A stretch of 64,000 bases of DNA from an uncultured Spirochaetia bacterium. Lineage in GTDB: Bacteria > Spirochaetota > Spirochaetia > JABEVK01. Where the stretch lies: assembly GCA_937960645.1 (NCBI GenBank), contig CALGPJ010000009.1:4522-68521 (forward strand), in the 5' to 3' direction. The notes under the pieces are model-generated. The model was given only the letters and a program-made list of their open reading frames with translations. It searched no databases and had not been told where the DNA came from. Below are positions 13,588 to 27,187 of the stretch, in pieces. The position numbers and the translations under genes were made by a program. Every line of letters starts with the position of its first letter. Position 1 is the stretch's first letter.

Positions 13588-13615
13588 GGGGCAGCTAGGT
13601 CTGCCCCTTTTTTTT
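13588..13615 (+). terminator. rho-independent terminator GGGGCAG-ctaggt-CTGCCCC + T8
   Basis: perfect stem plus 8 T; overlaps 3' end of convergent gene, whose KSKKK tail is encoded by the T-run. Confidence 0.55.
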
Positions 13616-14764
13616 CGATTTTAGCGGGAGGAAACGCCTTCGGAGGCTGGTCAGGGTAAGCGGCTTTTCCAGGGTACCTTCAAACAAGTTCGTATCAACC
13701 GGTTTTGGATCATCACGAGTTTTCAGCAAAAAAAGCTTGACACCCGTCTTTTTTTCTTCGTGGACCCGGCGAAGTGTTTTGGCAAGCTCGGCGGCACTCA
13801 ACCCCGGCAAGTCATCGTCAATCACGACTATAGTCCCATTCTCAGGCTGGTAATTTTCCAGGAGTTTTTCGCCACTCAGAAACAGCTGTGGCTGCAGATC
13901 GATCTTCGCCAGGAGCTTCTCGAACTGCAACCGGGTGTTGAGGTTGGGCCCAACAAAAACGATTCGCCCCGCCGAGGACTCGCTTGGGGAACTCAATTCC
14001 ACCCTATCGTTGACGATGATCAGCGCCCTGCTCGTGTTTTCGTACGGGATGACGGTCACCTGAAAGGAGGCAAGAGTCCTGTTTTCGGCTCGAGGGCCGT
14101 CGTTTTTGATCTCGACCTTGAATACCTCGGTCGCTGTCCCAGGGGACGTCAAAATGGATTGCAGCTTCTCTCTGTCTTCGTTGCGGATACGATCCAGGAG
14201 CCTGAACCCGAAGACCTGGGCCGGGGATTCCTTTTCCAGAAAGTGGGCCCCGTTTTGATTTGTTTCGATGATATGAAACTTTTCATCGCAAAGAAAGATG
14301 GGGATGGGTGCTGTGGTGAAGATGCTCATCATCAGCTGATATTGGCGCTGAAGACCTTCTTCGGCCAATTTTTCGGTGGTGATGTCCTTGAACGACCCAA
14401 AAATTAGATTCCCGGCACGCCGGGCCGCCACCCGCATGATCGCCGAGAAGCTTTTCGAAGGCTTGAGCCGACATTCCAGTTCGAAAACCCTGTTCGAATC
14501 GGGCAGACTCAGGAAAAAGCGACGGATTCTCTCGTGCTCCTCGTCCCCTAAAAACTCCCGCCACGTGTCGAAGTGCCAAAAATCGTCGGGTTTTTTGTTG
14601 AAAAATCTCTGGACACCGGGCGAAAAGCGCGTCAGCTGCGGGACCCCGTCTTCGAGGGTGACCAAAAACAACCACGAAACTCCGGACTCGGCTGCCTCAA
14701 CCAGGTCGTCCAGGTGCCATTCGGGTGGTTCGAATTCGATTAATTCCTTGACATCCTCGTCCAC
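13595..14764 (-). CDS. PAS-domain signalling protein with C-terminal receiver (REC)-like domain
   Basis: two PAS-like segments, C-terminal IVVIDDDLPGLSAAELAKTLRR...KLFLL resembles a CheY-like REC; GTG start. Confidence 0.55.
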   Translation of the reverse strand: MDEDVKELIEFEPPEWHLDDLVEAAESGVSWLFLVTLEDGVPQLTRFSPGVQRFFNKKPDDFWHFDTWREFLGDEEHERIRRFFLSLPDSNRVFELECRLKPSKSFSAIMRVAARRAGNLIFGSFKDITTEKLAEEGLQRQYQLMMSIFTTAPIPIFLCDEKFHIIETNQNGAHFLEKESPAQVFGFRLLDRIRNEDREKLQSILTSPGTATEVFKVEIKNDGPRAENRTLASFQVTVIPYENTSRALIIVNDRVELSSPSESSAGRIVFVGPNLNTRLQFEKLLAKIDLQPQLFLSGEKLLENYQPENGTIVVIDDDLPGLSAAELAKTLRRVHEEKKTGVKLFLLKTRDDPKPVDTNLFEGTLEKPLTLTSLRRRFLPLKSKKKGQT

Positions 14765-15087
14765 AACTTAGTTTTCGACAAAATTTGATCAATTGTAAAG
14801 CTAACGTAGTGCCTCAGCAATTGTCCCCCAGAATTAACGACTTTTGGGCCAAAAATTAGTAAAAATGTTCGCAAAAGCCACGATCCTCGAACACATTCCC
14901 CAAATAATGGAAACAAATATCGCCCGCAAAAACCCGGAATTTCCCAATTAGGCGAAAACCACAAGCCACATGGGCCCATTTTGTGGCTGACAGGCAAAAC
15001 TTGAGCACAATCAACGCGGCACTAAGTAAAGCTAAAGAGGAAGATTGCAATTGTAGAGAACCTGACAAGGACTTATAATCATTGCAG

Positions 15088-16866
15088 ATGATGAACAATA
15101 ATACCATAAAAGGCGATCTCGTCATTTTTGCCCTGTCCGTGTTCGCGGCCACGATGATAGCCTTCCTGATTCCGCCCATCACTCCCTGGGAATACTTTTG
15201 GAAGGACAGGATCCTGCGCCACACGCGCCTGTCATCGGCTGCTGAATCTGCACCCGAAAACCGCCTCCTCATCGTGGGCATCGACGAAACCTCCTTCGAG
15301 GAGATTCAGCGCCGCTGGCCCTGGCCCCGGGACCTTCTTGCGGAAGGTATCCGCAAAATCGTGGAAGGCCGCCCCGCTCTGATCGCCCTGGATGTAGGAC
15401 TCTGGGACAAAGGATTCTCGCCACGAGAAGACAGAGAGCTGGCCGAGGCCTTGAGTCCGGTCCCCCACGTCCTCCCGATCAAGTTCGGGGTTCAGTACCT
15501 CGAAGGAATGGAGGTCAGCCGACTTTTTCTTCCGCTGAGGGAGTTTCGCCAGGTCAACACCCGCCTGGGCTTCGTGAATCTGGCTCCAGACAGCGACGGA
15601 TTTATTCGAGATCTTCCCCTCACGGAGACCTTCAACGACGAAACCTGGCCCAGCTTTGCCCTGGCCATCGTGCGGGAGGCCTTTCCCGAAGCCCTGGAAC
15701 GCATCCCGCAAAGCAACGTCGTCCCCACGCGCTGGGTAGGACCGCCGGGAAGTATTCCCATGGTCAGTTTTTCCGATGCTCTGTACGGCAACGTTGCGGA
15801 AGGGACCTTTCAAAACAAGGTGGTGCTCATCGGAGCGATGTACCCCGAATCCAAAGACAGCTTTCCCACGGCCTTCTACAATGAAGGAGAGATGTACGGG
15901 GTCGAAGTCCACGCCCAATGGGTCGAAGCCCTGCGCCGTGGGGCCTTTCTGCAAGAGCCGCACTTTTTGGTGCTTTTATCGATGACTCTGCTGATGTTCC
16001 TACTCCTCGGTTCAGCCGTCTTCTTCCTGCCGATTCGTTTTTTCTTCCTGAGTTTAACCGTCGGTCTCGTAATCTACGGCGGCTTCCTGGAGTGGCAAAC
16101 TTACACCGGCGTTCTTTGGGCGGCCACACCCCTGTTGGTGGGTTTCGTCGTGCTGACGCAATCGGCTCTATGGTCTCGGTACCTCAGAGAAATCCGCAAT
16201 CGCCAACGCCTCATCGCCCAGTTTTCCCGCTACGTCTCACCCAAAATCGTCCGGTCGATTTTGGATACCGAACAAGATCTCAAACTGGGAGGCGATCGCA
16301 AACAGGTGGCCATCCTATTTACCGATATCCGCAACTTCACCACGCTCTCGGAGAAATGGCAACCCGAAAAGGTGGTGGAGATGCTGAACCAGTACTTCAA
16401 GGAGATGTGTGATGCCGTGTTCGAATTCGACGGCACGGTCAACAAGTTCATCGGCGATGCCGTGATGGCCCTCTTCAATGCCCCGCTCCATCAAAATGAC
16501 GCCCCGGAAAGGGCTGTTCGCACCGCCCTCTCCATGCGCCGGCGTTTGGGAGCGATGAATTCGATCCGCATCAAAAACGGCGAACAACCCATCGCCATCG
16601 GTGTCGGAATTCATTATGGGGAGGTCATCTCGGGAAACATCGGATCGCCCAACCAGATGGAGTACACGGTGATCGGAGATGCGGTCAACACCGCCAGCCG
16701 CATCGAATCGCTGTGCAAGGAATTAAAATCGGATATACTGATTAGTGACGAGGTGTATCGACACGTCCAAGATCGGCTGGAAGTGGTATCCCATCCGCCT
16801 GTCCAAGTCAAGGGCCGCTCGATTCCGGTTGTCGTGCATTCGGTAAAGGAATGGAGGGGAGGCTGA
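15088..16866 (+). CDS. CHASE2 sensor domain-containing class III adenylate/guanylate cyclase
   Basis: N-term TM + CHASE2-like periplasmic region, 3-4 TM helices, C-terminal cyclase domain (ILFTDIRNFTTLSE...FIGDAVMALFNAP...GIHYGEVISGNIGS...YTVIGDAVNTASRIESL); TATAAT 8 nt upstream of ATG 15088. Confidence 0.8.
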   Translation: MMNNNTIKGDLVIFALSVFAATMIAFLIPPITPWEYFWKDRILRHTRLSSAAESAPENRLLIVGIDETSFEEIQRRWPWPRDLLAEGIRKIVEGRPALIALDVGLWDKGFSPREDRELAEALSPVPHVLPIKFGVQYLEGMEVSRLFLPLREFRQVNTRLGFVNLAPDSDGFIRDLPLTETFNDETWPSFALAIVREAFPEALERIPQSNVVPTRWVGPPGSIPMVSFSDALYGNVAEGTFQNKVVLIGAMYPESKDSFPTAFYNEGEMYGVEVHAQWVEALRRGAFLQEPHFLVLLSMTLLMFLLLGSAVFFLPIRFFFLSLTVGLVIYGGFLEWQTYTGVLWAATPLLVGFVVLTQSALWSRYLREIRNRQRLIAQFSRYVSPKIVRSILDTEQDLKLGGDRKQVAILFTDIRNFTTLSEKWQPEKVVEMLNQYFKEMCDAVFEFDGTVNKFIGDAVMALFNAPLHQNDAPERAVRTALSMRRRLGAMNSIRIKNGEQPIAIGVGIHYGEVISGNIGSPNQMEYTVIGDAVNTASRIESLCKELKSDILISDEVYRHVQDRLEVVSHPPVQVKGRSIPVVVHSVKEWRGG

Positions 16867-16867
16867 G

Positions 16868-17500
16868 ATGAAAGTTCTGGTTTTGCTGATTCTTTGCTCT
16901 CAAATCCCTGCCCAAATGACGCTCTTGTCGCAGGAGGGGCAGGTCTATGTTCGCATCCAGGGGAGCAACGCCTTCCGGCAGGTTCAGCCGGGTGAGGTCC
17001 TGCCTGCTCAGGCAGTGGTGATGACCCGGGACGAGAGCTCTGCCGTTCTGGTTGCGCGTTCGGGCACGGTTCGCAGGCTTCGCCCCAACAGCCGGCTGAC
17101 GGTCCCCGTGGAGCCAAGCGACCAGGATTCGCCCCTGTACACCTCGGCCCTGGCCAAGAGCCAGAGCCGGGAGCGCAGCCGGCTGAGCATGACCCAGGTC
17201 GGGGCCACCCGGGCTCAGGACAACGCGGCTCCCCTGGCGGACACGCCGATGAGTGCCGCACAGCGGCAAAAACTGCAGGAAGCCGAGGTCGGTCTGGAAG
17301 CCTTGGACCTTGACCCCATCTCCCTGGCCCTGGTACGGGGAGCTCTTCGGGAGGAATATGCCCAGTGGGCTTCGGCCGAAAAAATTTACAAGGCGGCCCT
17401 GGCAACTCAGCCCGATCACGCTCTACTGCGGGATAGCCTTGCCGATCTCTACTTCAAACAGGGAAAACTGCGCCTGGCCCAGGAGTTTCGGCGACCATAA
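16868..17500 (+). CDS. FecR-domain protein with C-terminal TPR-like region
   Basis: GQVYVRIQGSNAFRQVQPGEVLPAQAVVMTRDESSAVLV...PNSRLTV fits FecR (PF04773) pattern; start 1 nt after cyclase stop; GGAGG RBS. Confidence 0.6.
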   Translation: MKVLVLLILCSQIPAQMTLLSQEGQVYVRIQGSNAFRQVQPGEVLPAQAVVMTRDESSAVLVARSGTVRRLRPNSRLTVPVEPSDQDSPLYTSALAKSQSRERSRLSMTQVGATRAQDNAAPLADTPMSAAQRQKLQEAEVGLEALDLDPISLALVRGALREEYAQWASAEKIYKAALATQPDHALLRDSLADLYFKQGKLRLAQEFRRP

Positions 17501-17560
17501 CCGGTTTTATTCTTGACTTTACTTTTAAATCAGTCTAAATAATGATCATTGGGGGTGTTG

Positions 17561-19225
17561 ATGTTTCAGGCTAGACACCTGAAGTTCTTGGTTATGGTAC
17601 CCCTTTTTCTGCTGGGACCTCGTACTGAGGGCCAGGAGGGAATGCGCATTGCCCTGGTGGTCGGGGTCAACCGCTACGACCGCCTCTCGCCCCTCAAAGC
17701 CGCCGTCAACGATGCCCAAAACATTGCCGCACACTTCCAATTATCCGGCTATGACCAGGTTTGGACCCTGACCGACAACGCCGAACAGCCCACCGCACGC
17801 GCCAGTATGGTGAACTTCCAGATCATGCTCGAGAATATCGAAAAGTTGGCCCAGACCGAGGCGATCTCCGAGCTCGTGGTGTTCTTCGCCGGCCACGGGG
17901 TTCAGGTGCAGGGCGAAAACTACCTTTGCTTTCCTGAGGCTGACCTCGCCGGCCGACGCGGTATCATCTCGGTGGACCGCGAGCTCATCCCCTGGCTGCG
18001 GCGCGTTCCGTCCCGGCTCTCCCTCACCTTCCTCGATGCCTGCCGCGAGGACCTGGGCCCGACCCGATCGGCTGGGGTTACCCGGGGTCTGGTCCTGCCG
18101 GCCAACATCGGTGGGGAATCTTCCCGCAATATTCTGGTTGCCTACTCGGCCCGACCGGGAGAATACGCCTACGAAAAACCTGACGGGTCGGGAGGCTTCT
18201 TCACCGATGTACTGCTCGAGGCCCTGCGCAAATCGGAAAAGATCAACCTGGGCCAGCTGGTACAGTACCTGCGGAGTCAGCTTCCCCAGCGCACCCAGCA
18301 GGTGTTCGGCAAACTCCAGATCCCCAGCTTCGGCGGCGATTTCGACCTGGACGCCTCGCTGACCAGCACCACCCGAATCAACCGAGCACTGCTCGCCAGC
18401 CTGCGTTTCCGATCCGAGATTCCCGTGAGCGCGGTTTACCTCAACGAGGAAAAGATCCCCATTCAGCCGGATGGGACGGTCGCCCTGAACCCGGGAGACT
18501 ACCTGCTGCGGGCGGTTTCCGGCAACAATTTCTGGGAAGCCAACATTTCGATTAAGGGTACGGGGGCCGTCACGGTCCTGCCAGATTGGAAGCCTGCTGG
18601 AACGCTCGATTTCCATCTGCCCCCGGCGGCCGCATTGGAACTTACGAACACTGGCTCAGGAACCGCCCTCCTGGTGGAGCGCGCCGGGGTGGTGCCCTAC
18701 ATCGAGGCAGGGACCTGGAAGGTCCAAACCGTGGGCAAGGCCTATCTCCCCTGGCAGGGCGAGTTGGTGATCACACCCGGCCAGACCACCCGCCTCAGCC
18801 CCCCGCTCCAGCCAGCTCCCGACCAGGAGCTCACCATTCGCCGGGCCGCCCTTGCCTGGGAACGCGATCGACTGGAGTCCCGCATCCCCGAAGCAGCCCG
18901 CCGGCGGCAGGAGTCGGCCCTCGTCCCCTGGTTGGCCGCTACCGGGGGCATCTCGCTGACCGCAGCGGGGGCCGGCCTATGGGTCTGGAGCGAGCTGGCC
19001 TACGCCGAGTACCAGGCGGCCACCAACAGTTTTGATGCTCAGAGCCGGCGGGAGCTGGTACAGGCCCTCGATATTTGGAAGTGGGTGGGACTGGGATTGG
19101 GCGCAGCCGGACTGGCAGCCTGGGCGGGGTACGAAGTTGCCCATCCCCACCCCGACCGGCTTCAAGACGCCATCCGGCGCCTGGACGAACAATTGAATGC
19201 CCTGGGTCCAAAGGAGGAACCATGA
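17561..19225 (+). CDS. caspase-family (peptidase C14) protein with signal peptide and C-terminal transmembrane segments
   Basis: caspase His/Cys dyad context FFAGHGVQ ... LTFLDACRED; N-terminal signal peptide; two hydrophobic helices near C-terminus. Confidence 0.7.
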   Translation: MFQARHLKFLVMVPLFLLGPRTEGQEGMRIALVVGVNRYDRLSPLKAAVNDAQNIAAHFQLSGYDQVWTLTDNAEQPTARASMVNFQIMLENIEKLAQTEAISELVVFFAGHGVQVQGENYLCFPEADLAGRRGIISVDRELIPWLRRVPSRLSLTFLDACREDLGPTRSAGVTRGLVLPANIGGESSRNILVAYSARPGEYAYEKPDGSGGFFTDVLLEALRKSEKINLGQLVQYLRSQLPQRTQQVFGKLQIPSFGGDFDLDASLTSTTRINRALLASLRFRSEIPVSAVYLNEEKIPIQPDGTVALNPGDYLLRAVSGNNFWEANISIKGTGAVTVLPDWKPAGTLDFHLPPAAALELTNTGSGTALLVERAGVVPYIEAGTWKVQTVGKAYLPWQGELVITPGQTTRLSPPLQPAPDQELTIRRAALAWERDRLESRIPEAARRRQESALVPWLAATGGISLTAAGAGLWVWSELAYAEYQAATNSFDAQSRRELVQALDIWKWVGLGLGAAGLAAWAGYEVAHPHPDRLQDAIRRLDEQLNALGPKEEP

Positions 19226-20981
19226 AACTACGGTACGTCGGATATGGCCTTTGCATTTTGGCCTTGGCCTCCTGCCAGCGGGTCTTTGACAACCCCTACG
19301 ACCCCCTCAATTCCCTGCGAAACTCGAATCCATCCAATCCTGCCACTTGGACGGTGACCTACACCGCACCCGATGCCCAAGGGGGTTCCGTTCCCATCGA
19401 CCCGATGTCGTACCTCACCGCGCAGACGGCCACTGTCCTGGGCAATCCGGGCGGTCTGGCCCGCAGCGGGTTGACCCTGTCTGCCTGGAGGCAGGGTACC
19501 ACCGATTATGTCCCCGGGGACAGCCTGATCATGACCTCCTCCCTGACCTTGACAGCCCAATGGACCAGCTCCGCAGGAGGGCTCACGACCCTCAGCGCCA
19601 GCGCTGCCCCCAACAGCAGCTATTTCCACGACGTTGCTGTGGCCCCGGACGGTTCGGTATACCTGGTAGGTTCGGTTTACGGCACAGGTAGCTTTACCTT
19701 TAATTCTAAAAGCGTTTCAGGGATTTACGGCTCAGGTCACAACGCCCTCATCATCAAGCGAAACCCTGATGGAACGGTGGCCTGGGCCAAATCGGTGAGC
19801 GCTGGTGGCAACACCTCGGTGTTTCGTGGGGTGGCGGTGGACAGTGCGGGAAACGCCTACGCCGCCGGCTACCAGACCGGAACGGGTAGCTTTACCTATG
19901 ACACCGGCAAGTCCGCCAGCGGTCCCTCGACCTCCTACAACGCCGTCCTGGTAAAGTACACCCCCAGCGGAGCCGTCGAATGGGTCAAGACGGCCAGTTC
20001 CGGGGGCCCCTCGAACTCGTGGAACGGTGTGGCTGTCGTGGGTTCCCAGGTGGTTGCTGTTGGAGAACAAGCAAGCTCAGCCACCCTCAACTGGGGGGAG
20101 TTTCCACTACATCCTCGAGCAGCTCAGGAGCCGGGCTGGTGGTGGCCTTTCAAACCACGAATGGCACACCGCTGTGGGGTCACTGTCTCGGGGGATCCGC
20201 TTATAGCACCCTTGAGAGAGCCACACCCTCCCCCGATGGTCAGAAGATCGCCGTGATCGGCTTCACGGGAGGCAACACGTCTTACGCTTCCACGGACTTT
20301 ACGGTTCCCGGCAAGAGCGTGCTGGTACTTCAACTGGATAGCTCGGGCAGCCTGCTCTGGGGCCGCACGGCCTCAGGCACCAGCACAGCGCCCAGCGAGG
20401 GCAAGGGTGTGGCCTACACTCGGGAGGGAAGGCTGTGGATCACCGGATATTACACCAAATCCACTGGTGGTAACAGCTTCGATTTGGGAAGTCAAAGCCT
20501 GAGCGTCGGACCAGCCTCTGGAAAGAACACCTTGTACGTAGCCAAGCTCGAACCCGACGGCACCGTCACGCAACTTGTCAGCTGGAATAACCCCGTCAGC
20601 GCCTCGGAAGGGCACGATATCGATGTCGATGTCTGGGGAAACGTGTTTGTAGCGGGCAGTGTCCAAAAGGATAGTTTTACTTTTTCCGGCATCTTGAGCA
20701 ACCAGACGCTTAATTACACCGACGGCAACGCCACCGGAAATTTCTTTCTTTTAAAACTCAATCCTCTAGGCAACGCTGAATGGGTCCGAGGTCACAACCG
20801 AACTTCTTCTCCCAATTCGACGTATTTTGGGGACGTGGCCGTTTCCTCGGAAAAGGTCTATGTCACGGGGTATACCAAGGGAAATCTCTCCTACCCCTTG
20901 CCGGCCCACCCCAGCGGGACCTTGAACGTTCAGGGGGTTTATAGCCTGTTCAACGCCGCCCTGGTGGTATTCCAGCGCTGA
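19222..20981 (+). pseudogene. SBBP (beta-propeller repeat) surface lipoprotein, interrupted by +1 frameshift at G6 tract 20093-20098
   Basis: AAGGAGG RBS, lipobox LALASC|Q; repeated ~50-aa units (G.VAVD..GN.Y.AG...G...F.........VKY..DGT..W) continue seamlessly from frame of 19222 into frame of ORF 19980..20981 if one G is added to the G6 run. Confidence 0.6.
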
Positions 20982-20988
20982 ATACTCC

Positions 20989-21336
20989 TCAGTCCAGAAG
21001 TTTCAGCAGTTCGTCCTTTTCGAAGGGCTTGATTAACCATGCCTTGGCCCCGGCCTTGAGCCCTTCCTCCACCATCGCCTTGTCGCTTTCGGTGGTGATC
21101 ACGATGATCGGAGTCTTTGCATACTCCGGAATCTTGCGGACCTCTCCGATAAACTGGATGCCGTTCATCCGAGGCATGTTGACATCCACCACGAAATAAT
21201 CGATGTGGGGCCGCCCCTCGAGCTTCCGGAGTGCATCCTCGCCGTTTTCCGCCTCGAGGAAATCGCCCTTTTCCTGAACGGCCATATGAACGATTTTGCG
21301 CATGGTGATGGAATCGTCAATTCCCATGATGGTCAT
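20989..21336 (-). CDS. cheY: CheY-like single-domain response regulator
   Basis: DDS...D(VVD)...NMPRMNG...T...K(WLIKP) receiver residues. Confidence 0.75.
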   Translation of the reverse strand: MTIMGIDDSITMRKIVHMAVQEKGDFLEAENGEDALRKLEGRPHIDYFVVDVNMPRMNGIQFIGEVRKIPEYAKTPIIVITTESDKAMVEEGLKAGAKAWLIKPFEKDELLKLLD

Positions 21337-24046: not shown

Positions 24047-24055
24047 CGCTTTCTC

Positions 24056-24457
24056 TTATTCATAGATTTTAAGGTCCTCTGCAACTTTTTGAATGTGATC
24101 AAAATCGGCATCATTATGTAAAAGATATAAATTGTTTTCTAAGGCTGTTTGAACTATCAAAAGATCAATTGTACTTCTAATAGTGATTCCCAATTTTCTA
24201 CATTTTAAATTGAGTCGAGCAGCTTCAGTGTGTGATTCTAATCCATTCCGCAACTGATAGATTGGAATAGTTTCTAAATATTCTTTTAACACGTCAAATT
24301 CTTTCTGATCTTTCGAGCCTTGTAGTATCTCCTGATAAATAAGAGGACTAATCCCAAATGGTATTTTCCTTTTAATTATTTCATCAAGCAGTTTAACTTT
24401 AATATTATCAGTGCCTTTCAAATAATCAATCAAAACAGATGTATCAACAAGAATCAT
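24056..24457 (-). CDS. vapC: type II toxin VapC (PIN-domain ribonuclease)
   Basis: MILVDTSVLIDYL... PIN acidic residues (D5, E, D, D), low GC (~30%), 4-nt overlap with upstream antitoxin gene. Confidence 0.85.
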   Translation of the reverse strand: MILVDTSVLIDYLKGTDNIKVKLLDEIIKRKIPFGISPLIYQEILQGSKDQKEFDVLKEYLETIPIYQLRNGLESHTEAARLNLKCRKLGITIRSTIDLLIVQTALENNLYLLHNDADFDHIQKVAEDLKIYE

Positions 24458-24663
24458 GAGTCATTTCTCATTTTTTTATAATCATACTCATCAGAAAAAT
24501 GAATTAACCCTTTTAGTTCATTAAGATTTTTAACTCGATGATTTCTTACAAATTCTATTAAGGCTAACTCAACAAGATCTTTTTTTGTACGGATGTTTCC
24601 AGCATACTTAAAAGCTTCCTTAACTAAGTTATCATCCAGGACAATATTTGTACGCATATACAC
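24454..24663 (-). CDS. vapB: type II antitoxin VapB
   Basis: 69 aa, MRTNIVLDDNLVKEA N-terminus typical of VapB antitoxins; translationally coupled to vapC. Confidence 0.7.
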   Translation of the reverse strand: MYMRTNIVLDDNLVKEAFKYAGNIRTKKDLVELALIEFVRNHRVKNLNELKGLIHFSDEYDYKKMRNDS

Positions 24664-24670
24664 CTCTCAA

Positions 24671-24688
24671 TGTGTATAATAGTACACA
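24671..24688. promoter_or_regulatory. palindrome TGTGTAtaatagTACACA upstream of vapB (candidate vapBC promoter/autoregulatory operator)
   Basis: perfect 6-bp inverted repeat flanking a TATAAT-like core, 8 nt upstream of vapB start on minus strand. Confidence 0.4.
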
Positions 24689-24713
24689 TACAAAGAAACG
24701 TCAATATCTTGTT

Positions 24714-24829
24714 TGCGCGAAGCGTCAACCGTACATTTGCTGAACTTGCAACGCGTCTATGGCGCGGTTTTTGCCGAGCAAAGCGTCAACAAAAGTGTGA
24801 CAGAGAAGAGTTTAGTTGAAGCGGTTGTT
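24714..24829. repeat. right copy of degenerate direct repeat bracketing vapBC
   Basis: see left copy 23911-24046. Confidence 0.5.
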
Positions 24830-24943
24830 ATACGTGTTTTACATATGTTTAAGAAATTCTATAAATGTTACACATCTATACGGAGGTATTTGAGCTGCAA
24901 TCCAATTCGTTCCTCTTTTAACACTTTTTGTTCTATCCTTTTT

Positions 24944-25690
24944 TTATGTAGTTTTTAGTTTTAAAGGATCATCTAAAAAGAAATACGTAAATTCCTTATC
25001 TTCATTATCCAATTTTGTTCCATCTATCCATTTTTTTACTAGTGACTCGTTATTATCTGCGAATTCCATTAAATCATCTTTGAATGATTCTACTTCACCA
25101 GGTTTACATGAAATAATTCCTAATATTTTGGAGATGAAAGAAATACCTTCTTCTTCACCAGATTTTTTTGTGAAATATGGTGCGAAATATAAAGGATTAC
25201 TGGAAATAACATCACGCCGATAAATATTATAATCAAAATATTTTTTTAATTCTAATTCAACACTTAAATCTTGAACTAGTATTTCTTTTTTATTTCTCAA
25301 TTTATATCCCCTATGTATGAAAGTTTTAAAGTCCTTAATTAATTTCTCTTTATTTTTTGGTAAATTCTTATCATCAATTAATTCATCAATATCAGACCAA
25401 TAAATATTTTTAACAATTATGTCTTTTTTGTAATCATTGATTTGTGTGATGAAGCACAATACTTTCTGCGACTCATCTTGAAATGATTCTAAGTATTGTG
25501 TTCTTTGTTCGTCTACTTTATTTTTACCAATTTTTGCTTCAATTATTACATGAAAATTATCTCTCAATCGTATTTCAACATCGGTTCTACCTTCTTTACG
25601 TTTCTTTTCAATAATAATTTCAATATTTCTATAGTTTTCTTCTGTATTCTTATTTGTAATTCCTAAATATCGTAAAAACTTAAAAAGCAT
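24944..25690 (-). CDS. PD-(D/E)xK nuclease-like protein, low-GC, probably 5'-frameshifted (true start likely ATG 25815)
   Basis: motif D(VEIRLRDNFHVII)EAK resembles restriction-endonuclease-fold catalytic core; reading frame stays open upstream of ATG 25690 to 25801 without any start codon, while a GGAGG-aaaaa-ATG at 25815 opens a 14-codon ORF in the adjacent frame. Confidence 0.45.
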   Translation of the reverse strand: MLFKFLRYLGITNKNTEENYRNIEIIIEKKRKEGRTDVEIRLRDNFHVIIEAKIGKNKVDEQRTQYLESFQDESQKVLCFITQINDYKKDIIVKNIYWSDIDELIDDKNLPKNKEKLIKDFKTFIHRGYKLRNKKEILVQDLSVELELKKYFDYNIYRRDVISSNPLYFAPYFTKKSGEEEGISFISKILGIISCKPGEVESFKDDLMEFADNNESLVKKWIDGTKLDNEDKEFTYFFLDDPLKLKTT

Positions 25691-26211
25691 TGTTGAATCT
25701 TTTGATAGAATAAAAGCAAATGCTTTTGCTAAACCAGTTTCATCAAAACCATATAAGTAAAACGGATTTATTGAGTAATTTGTAATATAATACCACTTGG
25801 TTTAATGATCATTTTTTCCTCCGCCCGAAGGGCCCTTATAACACCATTTCGACCGTTCCGTGAATAATAACTCTGGCCTGTTCTTTTTTCCTGATAAAAC
25901 CAGATTCTCAAAGAATTATTACATCCCAAATATGCCAACAAAACTTTGTCAAGTTCCTAAGAAGTCCCAACGTACAAATTTCAGACCACGAAGGAGGTCC
26001 ACGAAAAGGCGGGAAGTTGGGTGGCCAGGCCCAGGGATACCGATGCCACCGGCAGGAAAGACAAAGGTCTCCGACACACCGTAAACGGCCATCGATTCCT
26101 CTTTGCCTTTACGCCGGCCAATCTCCTGGACTCAGTAGGGTAAGATTATTAACCCCAGAGAAAATGACCACCACACCAGCGAAAATTTTTCTAATTTTTC
26201 CTCCCCCGGAC

Positions 26212-26326: not shown

Positions 26327-27187
26327 ATGATCATCAACCACAACCTGAGCGCCATGTTCGCTCAGCGCCAACTCAAGGTCACCAACGGTGACGTCACCAA
26401 GGACATGGAGAAGCTGTCCAGCGGCTTCCGGATCAACCGGGCCGGCGACGACGCCTCCGGTCTGGCCGTTTCAGAAAAGATGCGGGCTCAAATCCGCGGT
26501 CTGAACCAGGCCAGCCAGAACGCCAGCAACGGCATCAGCTTCATCCAGGCCACGGAAGGATACCTCCAGGAAACCCAGGACATCCTCCAGCGCATTCGTG
26601 AGCTGGCCGTCCAGGCTTCCAACGGTATTTACACCGACGAAGACCGGATGCAAATCCAGGTCGAAGTCAGCCAACTCATCGACGAGGTGGACCGCGTCGC
26701 CTTCCATGCCCAGTTCAACGGCATGAACATGCTGACCGGCTCCTTCGCCCGAGACATTGGCGAAAACGTGCCCACCGCCAGCATGTGGTTCCACATCGGC
26801 GCCAACGTAGACCAGAGGATTCGGGTCTACATCCAGACCATGACCGCCGCGGCCCTGAGCATGCGCGGTCTCACCGACAACTCGATGCTGAGCCTTCGGA
26901 CCCCCGAATCGGCCAACCAGGCGATCATGATCCTGGACAATGCCCTGCAGATTGTCTCCAAACAGCGGGCTGACCTGGGTGCCTACCAGAACCGCCTGGA
27001 ATTCGCCGTGAAAGGTCTGGACATCGGCGCCGAGAACCTCCAGGCTGCCGAAAGCCGTATCCGCGACGCGGACATGGCCAAGCAGATGGTGGACTACACC
27101 AAGAACCAGATTCTCGTGCAGAGCGGTACCGCCATGCTCGCGCAGGCAAACACCCGCTCGCAGAGTGTCTTGCAACTTCTCCGATAA
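26327..27187 (+). CDS. flaB: flagellar filament core protein FlaB (spirochete-type flagellin)
   Basis: 286 aa, [15 protein letters not shown]...[27 protein letters not shown]..., conserved flagellin N and C termini, GGAGG RBS. Confidence 0.95.

What the first reader, a model, noticed from the sequence alone, without database searches (positions are those of the whole stretch)
15088..20981. Co-oriented signalling/protease module: CHASE2 adenylate cyclase -> FecR-domain protein -> membrane caspase-like peptidase -> SBBP beta-propeller lipoprotein
Four consecutive same-strand genes with short gaps (1 nt, 60 nt, overlap). A CHASE2-sensor class III cyclase is immediately followed by a FecR-domain/TPR protein. 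FecR-like partners are a recurrent neighbour of CHASE2 proteins. Next comes a secreted/membrane-anchored peptidase C14 (caspase His-Cys dyad intact: AGHG...DACRE), then a surface beta-propeller lipoprotein. An extracytoplasmic caspase coupled to a cAMP-producing envelope sensor is not a characterised bacterial pathway. It could be a regulated proteolysis or envelope-stress/programmed-response system.
Basis: partly seen in the sequence, partly recalled or inferred. Interest (0 to 1): 0.7.

Follow-up and report, generated by a model that had tools for sequence, protein, structure and literature searches.

The report
Cyclase, adaptor, periplasmic caspase operon
A spirochaete gene cluster joins a membrane sensor that makes cAMP, and the small periplasmic partner protein that usually accompanies such sensors, to a secreted caspase-like protease and a surface lipoprotein. 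The sensor-partner pair is a known recurring pair, while the protease link looks new but rests on only a few metagenomic examples.

Summary
The four same-strand genes are real, with the stated spacing: a 1-nt gap, a 60-nt gap and an ATGA overlap. Two corrections apply.

- **Small protein.** It gives no Pfam FecR hit. It is a short FecR-like beta domain plus a TPR-like tail, and its nearest solved relative is MtxA, whose gene also neighbours a CHASE2 cyclase.
- **Lipoprotein gene.** It is split by a 1-nt frameshift in a G6 run (20093-20098). A sister assembly has it intact (584 aa).

Across ten distinct loci of the small-protein family:

- A CHASE2 cyclase lies immediately upstream in eight.
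- A signal-peptide-bearing caspase-fold protease is adjacent in five: C14 in the window's clade, TPR-CHAT in a distant lineage.
- Two close relatives keep small protein plus caspase without any cyclase.

The small protein is therefore the shared element. Generic C14 caspases (80 genome loci) almost never neighbour CHASE2 or FecR-like genes.

My best reading is an envelope module in which the periplasmic adaptor couples a CHASE2 class IIIb adenylate cyclase to a tethered, probably Arg/Lys-specific, orthocaspase. Proteolytic gating of the sensor is inferred, not shown.

Verdict: a new variant of a known kind (CHASE2 cyclase with a FecR/TPR partner), of moderate interest.

The parts
15073..15078 (+). 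Perfect TATAAT hexamer 10 nt upstream of the cyclase ATG. It lies in a 320-nt AT-rich intergenic region shared with the divergent PAS gene and is a possible operon promoter.
   Evidence: Read directly from the sequence. The consensus scan did not call it, because no -35 hexamer with 4 of 6 matches sits at 16-18 nt. Inference only.
15088..16866 (+). CHASE2-sensor class IIIb adenylate cyclase, 592 aa from ATG 15088 (alternative TTG start at 15082). Layout: N-terminal TM helix, periplasmic CHASE2, a hydrophobic block at residues 286-363 (about 3 TM helices), then a cytoplasmic cyclase domain.
   Evidence: - Domains: Pfam CHASE2 1.7e-43 and Guanylate_cyc 1e-28.
- Topology: hydropathy segments 6-34 and 286-363.
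- Catalytic motifs FTDI, NKFIGDA, EYTVIGDAVNTASR are conserved in five partner-linked homologues.
- I read these as two metal Asp residues, a Lys/Thr specificity pair and a transition-state Asn and Arg, on my recollection of Linder & Schultz's class III nomenclature.
16868..17500 (+). Secreted 210-aa adaptor, MtxA-like. It has a signal peptide (..IPA|QMT), a short FecR-like/retention-module-like beta domain (about residues 15-80), a conserved helix (89-107), a disordered linker (108-119) carrying the nearly invariant Arg115, and a TPR-like helical domain (130-208).
   Evidence: - Domain structure: AF2 model pLDDT 76.
- Sequence profile against PDB: 5ix9 E=4e-5, MtxA N-terminal region E=0.0085.
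- Family alignment A4 of 20 sequences gives the conserved positions.
- No Pfam FecR hit.
17501..17560 (+). AT-rich (33% GC) 60-nt spacer with a TTGACT ... AATAAT promoter-like pair at 19-nt spacing and a GGGGGTG Shine-Dalgarno-like run before the caspase ATG. It may be an internal promoter.
   Evidence: Read from the sequence. It was not called by the consensus scan, and no terminator was found in the gap. The equivalent gap is 19 nt in L003 and 13 nt in L005.
17561..19225 (+). Secreted peptidase C14 (orthocaspase/metacaspase-like), 554 aa. Layout: signal peptide, caspase domain (28-258; His112, Cys161), two beta-sandwich domains (279-339, 344-412), then a C-terminal helical hairpin with uncharged Gly/Ala-rich stretches (455-477, 508-525), a probable membrane tether.
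   Evidence: - Caspase identity: Pfam C14 9e-24; catalytic dyad invariant in alignment A3.
- Structure: AF2 pLDDT 80.
- Structural and sequence neighbours: Foldseek MALT1 caspase-Ig3 6e-13, Yca1 and other metacaspases; PDB sequence hit Yca1 2e-7.
- Secretion: signal-peptide-like N-termini with small residues at -3/-1 before Q or G in all 7 homologues.
19222..20981 (+). SBBP beta-propeller lipoprotein gene (lipobox LALAS|C). It is translationally coupled to the caspase gene by an ATGA overlap and is interrupted in this window by a 1-nt frameshift.
   Evidence: - Frameshift: the two-frame tblastn match to the 569-aa L003 orthologue and the reconstruction to a 586-aa ORF.
- Intact sister copy: 584-aa P0245.
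- SBBP assignment: 28.5 bits against a cut-off of 20.5 on P0245; homologues carry PF06739 and PF09479.
20093..20098 (+). G6 homopolymer at which the lipoprotein reading frame breaks. G7 would restore it.
   Evidence: P0205 and P0245 read ..NWGGV.. straight through this point.

Best explanation
The locus is an operon-like envelope signalling set in a spirochaete, built around a small secreted adaptor protein.

**Shown**
- The cyclase is a CHASE2-sensor class III enzyme with the full set of catalytic motifs.
- The 210-aa protein belongs to a family of secreted proteins (short FecR-like beta domain plus TPR-like domain, MtxA-like). Its gene almost always sits directly behind a CHASE2 cyclase, often overlapping it.
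- In the window's clade the same small gene is followed, closely or with translational coupling, by a signal-peptide-bearing C14 caspase homologue with an intact His/Cys dyad, and then by an SBBP lipoprotein.
- A distant lineage has a secreted TPR-CHAT protease in the same three-gene set.

**Inferred**
- The adaptor binds the periplasmic CHASE2 domain and sets cyclase activity, as proposed for FecR/TPR partners of CHASE2 sensors elsewhere.
- The caspase is tethered to the inner membrane by its C-terminal helical hairpin, with the catalytic domain in the periplasm. The metacaspase-type acidic S1 residues (VND, DAC) suggest it cuts after Arg or Lys.
- The caspase acts on the adaptor, possibly at the nearly invariant Arg115 in the disordered linker, or on the lipoprotein. 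A surface or periplasmic event would then be turned into an irreversible change in cAMP synthesis.
- The lipoprotein is a likely surface-exposed input or substrate.

Because cAMP is cytoplasmic and the protease is periplasmic, any coupling must run through the periplasmic side of the sensor or through transcription.
For: **Gene structure and domains**
-.

**Cyclase directly upstream of the small gene in 8 of 10 distinct family loci**
- Window, L004, L094, L086, L087, L088-91, L092/93, L095.
- The cyclases in these loci are close homologues with conserved catalytic motifs.

**Caspase-fold protease adjacent in 5 of 10 loci**
- C14 in the window, L003, L004 and L005.
- Secreted TPR-CHAT in L088-91.
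- L003 and L005 keep small protein plus caspase 13-19 nt apart with no cyclase, so the small protein travels with either partner.
- An independent secreted FecR-like plus secreted caspase pair occurs in Rhodoferax L047.

**Specificity of the association**
- 40 upstream neighbours of generic caspases are heterogeneous.
- Only L066 and L040 have a CHASE2 cyclase within 10 kb.

**Adaptor identity and compartment**
- Adaptor fold and relation to MtxA: with PMC4439547 for the mtxA/CHASE2-cyclase neighbourhood.
- Caspase fold and dyad.
- Signal peptides on the adaptor, the caspase, the CHAT protein and the lipoprotein.

**Co-transcription**
- No intergenic terminators; an ATGA overlap and a 1-nt gap.

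**Published background**
- CHASE2 removal makes S. meliloti CyaD1 constitutive (figure legend in PMC5498481), so CHASE2 can act as an inhibitory input domain.
Against: - The protease link rests on few independent events: one C14 clade, one CHAT lineage and one Rhodoferax pair. All come from short metagenomic contigs of unknown organisms.
- Family loci L086 and L095 have cyclase plus small protein with no protease next to them.
- The closest other spirochaete caspase relatives (L006-L008, L001/2) lack both the cyclase and the small protein, and sit beside unrelated lipoproteins.
- In the window, a 60-nt AT-rich spacer with promoter-like hexamers separates the small and caspase genes. L004 has a 262-nt gap.
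- In L004 the cyclase and small genes carry stop codons, and in L094 the cyclase is frameshifted. The cyclase may therefore be dispensable in this clade.
- No interaction, cleavage or cAMP measurement exists.
- The TM tether is weak by hydropathy, and the positive charges before the first hydrophobic stretch do not fit the positive-inside rule well.
- Deleting mtxA gave no phenotype in Magnetospirillum (PMC4439547).
Confidence: 0.45

Rival explanations
1. Two separate pairs happen to sit side by side. One is a CHASE2 cyclase with its periplasmic partner, a sensor pair. The other is a secreted caspase with a lipoprotein, a surface-protein processing or shedding pair. There is no functional link between them.
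For: - Spirochaete caspase relatives L006, L007 and L001/2 sit next to lipoprotein genes and lack the cyclase and small protein.
- The caspase and lipoprotein genes overlap by ATGA.
- A 60-nt AT-rich promoter-like spacer lies between the small and caspase genes.
- L086 and L095 have cyclase plus small protein without a protease.
Against: - L003 and L005 keep the small gene 13-19 nt upstream of the caspase although no cyclase is present. The small protein therefore does not simply follow the cyclase.
- A secreted CHAT protease overlaps the CHASE2 cyclase gene in L088-91.
- A secreted FecR-like protein pairs with a caspase in L047.
Confidence: 0.25
2. The selected unit is adaptor plus caspase plus lipoprotein, a periplasmic proteolysis or surface-remodelling system. 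The TPR/beta-domain protein would be the caspase's regulator or substrate adaptor. The cyclase would be an ancestral neighbour that is being lost, so cAMP plays no part.
For: - The cyclase is absent in L003 and L005.
- It is interrupted by two stop codons in L004 and broken into several frames in L094.
- The caspase is intact in all four loci.
- The lipoprotein is conserved in L003.
Against: - The window's cyclase is intact, with all catalytic motifs.
- The small gene in L004 also has a stop codon, so that contig may simply be decaying or of poor quality.
- Across the wider family the cyclase is the most constant neighbour, at 8 of 10 loci.
Confidence: 0.2
3. The cluster is an anti-phage or programmed-death system: a Pycsar-like cyclase, or a caspase/CHAT effector as in conflict systems.
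For: - The cyclase domain hits PADLOC PycC models (best 8.7e-30).
- The caspase hits a PADLOC 'caspase' model at 2e-10.
- Caspase-CHASE2 fusions occur in conflict-type architectures (PMC8195603).
Against: - The PycC hits reflect generic class III cyclase homology.
- No cNMP-binding effector, NTPase, TIR or pore-forming partner is present.
- The specificity residues are the Lys/Thr adenylate type.
- The protease, adaptor and lipoprotein all carry export signals, whereas known defence caspases and CHAT proteases act in the cytoplasm (my own knowledge).
Confidence: 0.03
4. The cluster is a FecR-type cell-surface signalling system: an anti-sigma factor processed by regulated proteolysis.
For: - The beta domain has remote FecR-like sequence features.
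- A protease is encoded next door.
Against: - No ECF sigma gene or TonB-dependent transducer is in the cluster or its flanks.
- The small protein has only a signal peptide. It has no cytoplasmic anti-sigma domain and no TM helix.
- It gives no Pfam FecR hit.
Confidence: 0.02

Closest known systems
MtxA (MGR_0208) of Magnetospirillum gryphiswaldense and its neighbouring CHASE2 adenylate cyclase (PMC4439547; PDB 4z29)
   Same: - Both are secreted proteins with an N-terminal beta region and a C-terminal TPR-like domain.
- Both are encoded next to a CHASE2 cyclase.
- The family profile hits the MtxA N-terminal region at E=0.0085.
   Different: - MtxA is 313 aa and has a central Ig-like (Big) domain, which is absent here.
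- Its gene precedes the cyclase rather than following it.
- No caspase is reported nearby.
- Sequence similarity is marginal.
- The function of MtxA is unknown, and its deletion gave no phenotype.
Campylobacterota cAMP cluster: CHASE2 adenylate cyclase + cAMP phosphodiesterase + FecR-domain outer-membrane protein + TPR protein (PMC9239204)
   Same: A CHASE2 cyclase is clustered with FecR-type and TPR-type extracytoplasmic proteins. The authors interpret the cluster as one signalling pathway.
   Different: - Here the FecR-like and TPR parts are fused in one 210-aa protein.
- There is no phosphodiesterase here.
- A caspase and a lipoprotein are present here instead.
S. meliloti CyaD1 (CHASE2 adenylate cyclase) and SMc02177 (FecR-domain protein) (PMC5498481); Burkholderia BiofilmReg operon, RR / LysM-FecR / CHASE2 histidine kinase (PMC5192318)
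   Same: A FecR-type periplasmic protein is encoded with, or regulated alongside, a CHASE2 sensor. CHASE2 acts as a regulatory input, since CyaD1 without CHASE2 is constitutive.
   Different: - Those partners have full Pfam FecR domains, in Burkholderia with LysM as well. The window protein does not.
- No protease is in those clusters.
- The gene adjacency of cyaD1 and smc02177 is from my memory of the locus tags. I did not check it here.
Caspase-CHASE2 fusion proteins (Trichodesmium metacaspase-CHASE2, PMC3501461 and PMC2853523; EACC2-caspase-CHASE2, PMC8195603)
   Same: A caspase-fold protease and a CHASE2 sensor are linked in one system.
   Different: In the fusions the caspase is predicted to be cytoplasmic and serves as the output of the CHASE2 sensor. 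Here the caspase is a separate, exported protein and the output domain is a cyclase.
Lap system (LapD-LapG-LapA) of Pseudomonas. This is a functional analogy drawn from my own knowledge.
   Same: - A periplasmic cysteine protease is linked to cyclic-nucleotide signalling across the inner membrane.
   Different: - The protease family differs: LapG is a transglutaminase-like cysteine protease, not C14.
- The nucleotide differs: c-di-GMP receptor against cAMP synthase.
- There is no T1SS adhesin here.
- In Lap the signal runs inside-out.
Orthocaspases / metacaspases (e.g. yeast Yca1, PDB 4f6o; cyanobacterial orthocaspases, PMC6426788)
   Same: - Caspase-haemoglobinase fold.
- His/Cys dyad.
- Acidic residues at the positions I take to line the S1 pocket (VND, DAC), suggesting cleavage after basic residues.
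   Different: - This one is exported via an N-terminal signal peptide.
- It is followed by two beta-sandwich domains and a C-terminal helical hairpin.
- No characterised orthocaspase is periplasmic, as far as the papers searched show.

Membership tests
CHASE2-sensor class III adenylate cyclase | CHASE2 domain above the Pfam gathering score, flanked by TM segments (one before, about three after) | tested here: met
   CHASE2 scores 149.5 bits against a cut-off of 26.3. Hydrophobic segments lie at 6-34 and 286-363.
CHASE2-sensor class III adenylate cyclase | Class III cyclase domain with two metal Asp residues, a substrate-specifying Lys plus Asp/Thr, and a transition-state Asn and Arg | tested here: met
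   Guanylate_cyc scores 100.7 bits. The motifs FTDI, NKFIGDA and EYTVIGDAVNTASR are conserved in five homologues. I assigned the residues to the class IIIb Lys/Thr type from my own knowledge of the family.
CHASE2-sensor class III adenylate cyclase | cAMP synthesis | not testable with these tools
   This needs an enzyme assay or complementation of a cya mutant.
FecR domain protein (PF04773) | Match to the Pfam FecR model at or above the gathering score, over most of its 97 positions | tested here: not met
   The window protein gives no hit at E<=10. Distant family members give E=0.002-0.05 over profile positions 1-40 only. The family domain overlaps only the start of true FecR repeats in P0095.
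FecR-type anti-sigma / cell-surface signalling | Cytoplasmic anti-sigma domain plus a TM helix; an adjacent ECF sigma factor and TonB-dependent transducer | tested here: not met
   The small protein has only a signal peptide. The neighbours are PAS, REC, GroEL and sugar-nucleotide genes.
MtxA-like periplasmic partner of CHASE2 cyclases | Signal peptide, N-terminal beta region, C-terminal TPR-like domain, and a gene adjacent to a CHASE2 cyclase | tested here: met
   The adjacency is shown. MtxA's own features are described in PMC4439547.
MtxA-like periplasmic partner of CHASE2 cyclases | Significant sequence homology to MtxA, and a central Ig-like (Big) domain | tested here: inconclusive
   The profile against the 4z29 sequence gives E=0.0085 over the N-terminal region only. 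The Big domain is absent from the 210-aa model.
Peptidase C14 (orthocaspase/metacaspase-like) | Caspase domain above the Pfam threshold, a conserved catalytic His and Cys, and a caspase fold | tested here: met
   Peptidase_C14 scores 84.8 bits against a cut-off of 21.4. H112 and C161 are invariant. The His region aligns to that of Yca1. Foldseek hits MALT1, Yca1 and other metacaspases.
Peptidase C14 (orthocaspase/metacaspase-like) | Proteolytic activity and P1 Arg/Lys specificity | not testable with these tools
   The acidic residues D51 (VND) and D159 (DAC) are invariant in A3. Reading them as S1 pocket residues is my inference by analogy with metacaspases.
SBBP beta-propeller lipoprotein | Lipobox with Cys, and SBBP repeats above the Pfam threshold | tested here: met
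   The lipobox is LALAS|C. SBBP scores 28.5 bits against a cut-off of 20.5 on the intact sister orthologue P0245. PF06739 is annotated on most homologues. The window fragments alone fall below threshold. NCBIfam LipL53-family hits are far below their cut-off, so this is not a LipL53 equivalog.
SBBP beta-propeller lipoprotein | Intact open reading frame in this window | tested here: not met
   There is a 1-nt frameshift at the G6 run 20093-20098.
Pycsar (pyrimidine cyclase defence system) | A PycC cyclase with an adjacent effector that carries a cyclic-nucleotide-binding domain | tested here: not met
   PycC models hit the cyclase domain. None of the four genes, and none of the flanking genes, has a cNMP-binding domain.
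Lap-type adhesin release system | A LapG-family protease, a LapD c-di-GMP receptor, and a T1SS adhesin with a retention module | tested here: not met
   The protease is C14, and there is no GGDEF/EAL receptor or RTX adhesin. Only the fold and weak sequence similarity of the beta domain to the retention module are shared.

The most novel reading that the evidence does not exclude
A previously undescribed envelope switch. An exported, membrane-tethered caspase-fold protease (C14, or CHAT in other lineages) cleaves the MtxA-like/FecR-like partner of a CHASE2 sensor, possibly at the conserved linker arginine. This irreversibly gates cAMP synthesis in response to a cue sensed at the cell surface, for example through the variable beta-propeller lipoprotein. 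It would give both CHASE2, whose ligand is unknown, and periplasmic bacterial caspases their first mechanistic role.
Probability: 0.15. Interest if true: 0.8.

Novelty: new variant of a known kind. Interest (0 to 1): 0.5.

Why it matters
- **Open questions it bears on.** CHASE2 is a widespread sensor domain with no known ligand or activation mechanism. Bacterial caspase homologues, especially exported ones, have almost no assigned function.
- **What the locus adds.** A small adaptor family is faithfully attached to CHASE2 adenylate cyclases. In at least two unrelated lineages it is also attached to exported caspase-fold proteases. This points to regulated periplasmic proteolysis as an input to cAMP signalling.
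- **Why it is testable.** All the pieces are small, soluble or single-pass, and could be reconstituted in an E. coli cya reporter strain.
- **A separate point of interest.** The fast-evolving lipoprotein, which carries a homopolymer frameshift, is a candidate phase- or antigen-variable surface protein.
- **If the protease link is fortuitous.** The locus is then an ordinary CHASE2-cyclase/partner pair next to a caspase-lipoprotein pair.

Tried and rejected
**Searches that gave nothing or could not be run**
- Exact-sequence look-ups of the window's caspase and small protein found no contig on record. The source organism could therefore not be named. A FlaB-type flagellin and the nearest caspase relatives point to Spirochaetota.
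- Alignments A4 and A5 of the small family were too divergent to seed a metagenome scan.
- The scan with A6 found no relatives.
- The scan with A1 found one locus, L094.
- The representative-library search could not take L003/L005 proteins.
- The afdb50 fold library was unavailable.
- Rfam found only a tRNA in the window.
- The repeat scan showed nothing beyond chance-level short matches.
- The terminator scan was at background, 7 found against 7.5 expected.

**Readings rejected**
- Pycsar or another defence system: only generic cyclase and caspase homology, and no effector.
- FecIR cell-surface signalling: no sigma factor, transducer or anti-sigma domain.
- LipL53 equivalog: 30-40 bits against a cut-off of 400.
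- EACC1-type caspase: 45.7 bits against a cut-off of 140.
- A general association of C14 caspases with CHASE2 or FecR: 40 upstream neighbours were heterogeneous.

**Left uninterpreted**
- A weak YaxA hit of the caspase C-terminal region (E=0.0067) is probably coiled-coil or helical-hairpin similarity.

Full report
**1. What is in the sequence**

Window 15082-20981 carries four co-oriented genes.

- The first gene (ATG 15088, or TTG 15082, to 16866) has a CHASE2 domain (E=1.7e-43) and a class III cyclase domain (E=1e-28).
  - Hydrophobic segments at residues 6-34 and 286-363 bracket CHASE2. This is the usual topology: CHASE2 outside, cyclase inside.
  - The motifs FTDI, NKFIGDA and EYTVIGDAVNTASR are conserved in five homologues.
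  - From my knowledge of class III cyclases, these supply the two metal-binding Asp, the Lys/Thr pair typical of class IIIb adenylate cyclases, and the transition-state Asn and Arg.
- The second gene starts 1 nt after the cyclase stop (16868-17500), behind a GGAGG motif.
- After a 60-nt AT-rich spacer comes the caspase gene (17561-19225). It scores Peptidase_C14 E=9e-24.
- The lipoprotein ATG (19222) overlaps the caspase stop as ATGA.
- The cluster is bounded by a divergent PAS-domain gene and a convergent single-domain response-regulator gene.
- No terminator-like site above background lies between the genes.
- A FlaB-type flagellin ([14 protein letters not shown]...) at 26327-27187 indicates a spirochaete. 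So does the fact that the nearest caspase relatives come from Spirochaetaceae and Treponema MAGs.

**2. Two corrections to the observation**

*The small protein is not a Pfam FecR-domain protein.*

- It gives no hit at E<=10 and only sub-threshold TPR models.
- A profile search of 1.8 billion representatives found a family of secreted 210-260-aa proteins. Family members have a signal peptide, a roughly 65-residue beta domain, a conserved helix, a linker and a TPR-like tail.
- Distant members give sub-threshold FecR hits restricted to profile positions 1-40 of 97, plus DUF7354 hits.
- The family domain aligns with the beginning of genuine FecR repeats in a three-repeat FecR protein.
- The family profile hits the 5ix9 sequence at E=4e-5 and the unsolved N-terminal beta region of MtxA at E=0.0085.
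- MtxA is a periplasmic protein of magnetospirilla whose gene is followed by a CHASE2 adenylate cyclase. Its deletion has no known phenotype (PMC4439547).

*The lipoprotein gene is frameshifted in this window.*

- The 569-aa L003 orthologue aligns in two frames, with the break between 20094 and 20127.
- The break coincides with a G6 run at 20093-20098, and one extra G restores a 586-aa ORF.
- The protein collection holds the source contig's calls as two pieces (344 and 242 aa). It also holds an intact 584-aa protein from a sister assembly and a 97%-identical protein that reads NWGGV through the site.
- SBBP passes the Pfam threshold on the intact protein.

**3. The caspase**

- His112 and Cys161 are invariant in seven homologues.
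- The profile aligns to yeast metacaspase Yca1 through the catalytic His region.
- The AF2 model (pLDDT 80) shows a caspase domain (28-258), two beta-sandwich domains, and a C-terminal set of long helices. These form a hairpin carrying two uncharged Gly/Ala-rich stretches (455-477 and 508-525).
- Foldseek returns MALT1 caspase-Ig3, Yca1 and other metacaspases.
- All seven homologues begin with a short basic/hydrophobic segment ending in small residues before Q or G. This is the form of a Sec signal peptide, so the catalytic domain is most likely periplasmic.
- The membrane tether is only a prediction: no window reaches KD 1.4.
- Asp51 (VND) and Asp159 (DAC) sit where metacaspases have their acidic S1 residues. 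I therefore infer Arg/Lys specificity, in line with orthocaspases in general (abstract of PMC6426788).

**4. Conservation of the neighbourhood**

Ten distinct loci of the small-protein family could be read.

| Locus | Arrangement |
|---|---|
| Window | cyclase > small > C14 > lipoprotein |
| L004 | same order; two in-frame stops in the cyclase and one in the small gene; caspase intact |
| L094 | cyclase in several frames > small, then the contig ends |
| L003 | helicase, 129 aa > small > C14 > lipoprotein |
| L005 | divergent RNR; small > C14 |
| L086 | MCP > cyclase > small > hydrolase-like |
| L087 | cyclase > small |
| L088-91 | TPR-CHAT > cyclase > small > MgtC |
| L092/93 | 242 aa > cyclase > small > secreted TPR protein (truncated) |
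| L095 | cyclase C-terminus > small |

- The cyclase is immediately upstream in 8 of 10 loci, often with a 4-nt overlap.
- A caspase-fold protease is adjacent in 5 of 10.
- The TPR-CHAT protein has a signal peptide. It is therefore a second, non-orthologous, exported clan-CD protease in the same trio.
- Relatives of the caspase itself tell a different story.
  - The closest ones outside the window's clade (33-43% identity; L001/2, L006-L008) have neither the cyclase nor the small protein, and lie beside unrelated lipoproteins.
  - Among 80 genome loci with C14 relatives, home-made HMMs found a CHASE2 cyclase within 10 kb in only two.
  - They found one FecR-like neighbour: Rhodoferax L047, a secreted 428-aa protein 16 nt upstream of a secreted caspase-MORN protein.
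  - Forty upstream neighbours were otherwise heterogeneous.

**5. Interpretation**

- The cyclase-adaptor pair is a member of a known, recurrent but mechanistically uncharacterised arrangement. Published cases are MtxA (PMC4439547), the Campylobacterota clusters (PMC9239204), S. meliloti (PMC5498481) and Burkholderia (PMC5192318).
- The new element is the exported caspase-fold protease.
- The adaptor travels with the cyclase, with the protease, or with both. It shares the periplasm with CHASE2 and with the caspase domain. It is therefore the natural physical link.
- I favour a model in which it binds CHASE2 and is bound or cut by the caspase.
  - The nearly invariant Arg115 lies in the segment modelled as disordered (108-119) between the helix and the TPR domain.
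  - That makes it a candidate site for an Arg/Lys-specific protease.
  - This step is inference. Nothing here shows interaction or cleavage.
- Two rival readings remain substantial.
  - The two pairs may be functionally independent.
  - The core may be adaptor-caspase-lipoprotein, with a cyclase that is being lost in this clade: absent in L003 and L005, disrupted in L004 and L094.
- A defence-system reading is unlikely. The PADLOC hits are generic, no effector is present, and three of the four products are exported.

**6. Comparison with known systems and novelty**

- The parts are ordinary family members: a CHASE2 class III cyclase, a C14 peptidase and an SBBP lipoprotein.
- The adaptor is best described as MtxA-like, not as a FecR-domain protein.
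- Caspase-CHASE2 links are known only as fusions with a cytoplasmic caspase (PMC3501461, PMC2853523, PMC8195603).
- The Lap system is a loose functional analogue: a periplasmic Cys protease, a cyclic-nucleotide link and a retention-module-like domain. It fails every membership feature except the fold of the beta domain.
- Full-text searches found no description of an exported caspase or CHAT protease with a CHASE2 cyclase and a FecR/TPR partner.
- I rate it a new variant of a known kind. Interest is moderate (0.5), because the evidence for the protease link is real but thin: two or three independent lineages, on short contigs.

**7. Side observations**

- Between the window and its sister assembly the caspase differs at 2 of 554 residues and the adaptor at 2 of 210. 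The lipoprotein differs at 24 of 584 residues plus a 2-residue indel, with changes clustered at 414-416 and 494-506.
- Together with the homopolymer frameshift, this suggests a surface protein under diversifying selection or phase variation. An assembly error at the G run cannot be excluded.

Noticed in passing
window 20093-20098 (within 19222-20981): The lipoprotein gene is broken by a 1-nt deletion in a G run (G6 where G7 is needed). A sister assembly has it intact. This is either a homopolymer assembly error or slipped-strand phase variation of a surface lipoprotein.
   Followed up: partly
window 19222-20981 compared with P0245: The lipoprotein is 96% identical between sister assemblies, against 99.6% for the caspase and 99% for the adaptor. 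The substitutions cluster at residues 414-416 and 494-506, a pattern expected of exposed, diversifying loops.
   Followed up: partly
L004 positions 239, 518, 2149; L094 1-1724: In L004 the cyclase (TAA, TAG) and the adaptor gene (TAG) carry substitutions to stop codons at conserved positions, while the caspase is intact. In L094 the cyclase is split over several frames. This may be decay of the cyclase in the window's clade, or the contigs may be of poor quality.
   Followed up: partly
window 24050-25900: A low-GC islet (0.24-0.37 against about 0.58) lies between GroEL and a flagellin gene. It holds a PIN/VapC-like toxin (24056-24457, minus strand), an overlapping 69-aa antitoxin-like ORF (24454-24663) and an AT-rich 248-aa ORF (24944-25690) with no Pfam hit. 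It is probably horizontally acquired.
   Followed up: no
window 26327-27187: A flagellin with the N-terminus [15 protein letters not shown] matches the spirochaetal FlaB core-flagellin signature as I recall it. This supports a spirochaete origin for the window.
   Followed up: no
L006 9989-11983: The caspase relative in a Spirochaetaceae MAG ends in an aromatic-rich, outer-membrane-barrel-like C-terminus (...GVKLWF) instead of the helical hairpin. A small lipoprotein gene follows it. Exported caspases appear to be anchored in different ways.
   Followed up: no
L047 518-3733: In a Rhodoferax MAG, a secreted 428-aa FecR-like protein (sub-threshold PF04773, E=0.0024) lies 16 nt upstream of a secreted caspase with C-terminal repeats that I read by eye as MORN-type.
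   Followed up: partly
L088 2444-8696 (also L089-L091): The order is a signal-peptide TPR-CHAT protein (1231 aa), a CHASE2 adenylate cyclase overlapping its end, a small adaptor-family protein, then MgtC. The same trio logic appears with a different clan-CD protease.
   Followed up: partly
window 17561-19225, residues about 367-500: The caspase family profile weakly hits the pore-forming toxin subunit YaxA (6ek7, E=0.0067) over the last beta-sandwich and the helical hairpin. This is probably non-specific helical similarity.
   Followed up: no
window 13595-14764 (minus strand) and 20989-21336 (minus strand): The cluster is flanked by a PAS-domain protein (divergent, sharing a 320-nt AT-rich intergenic region) and a stand-alone receiver-domain protein (convergent, 7 nt away). 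It is a signalling-rich neighbourhood, and any relation to the cluster is unknown.
   Followed up: no
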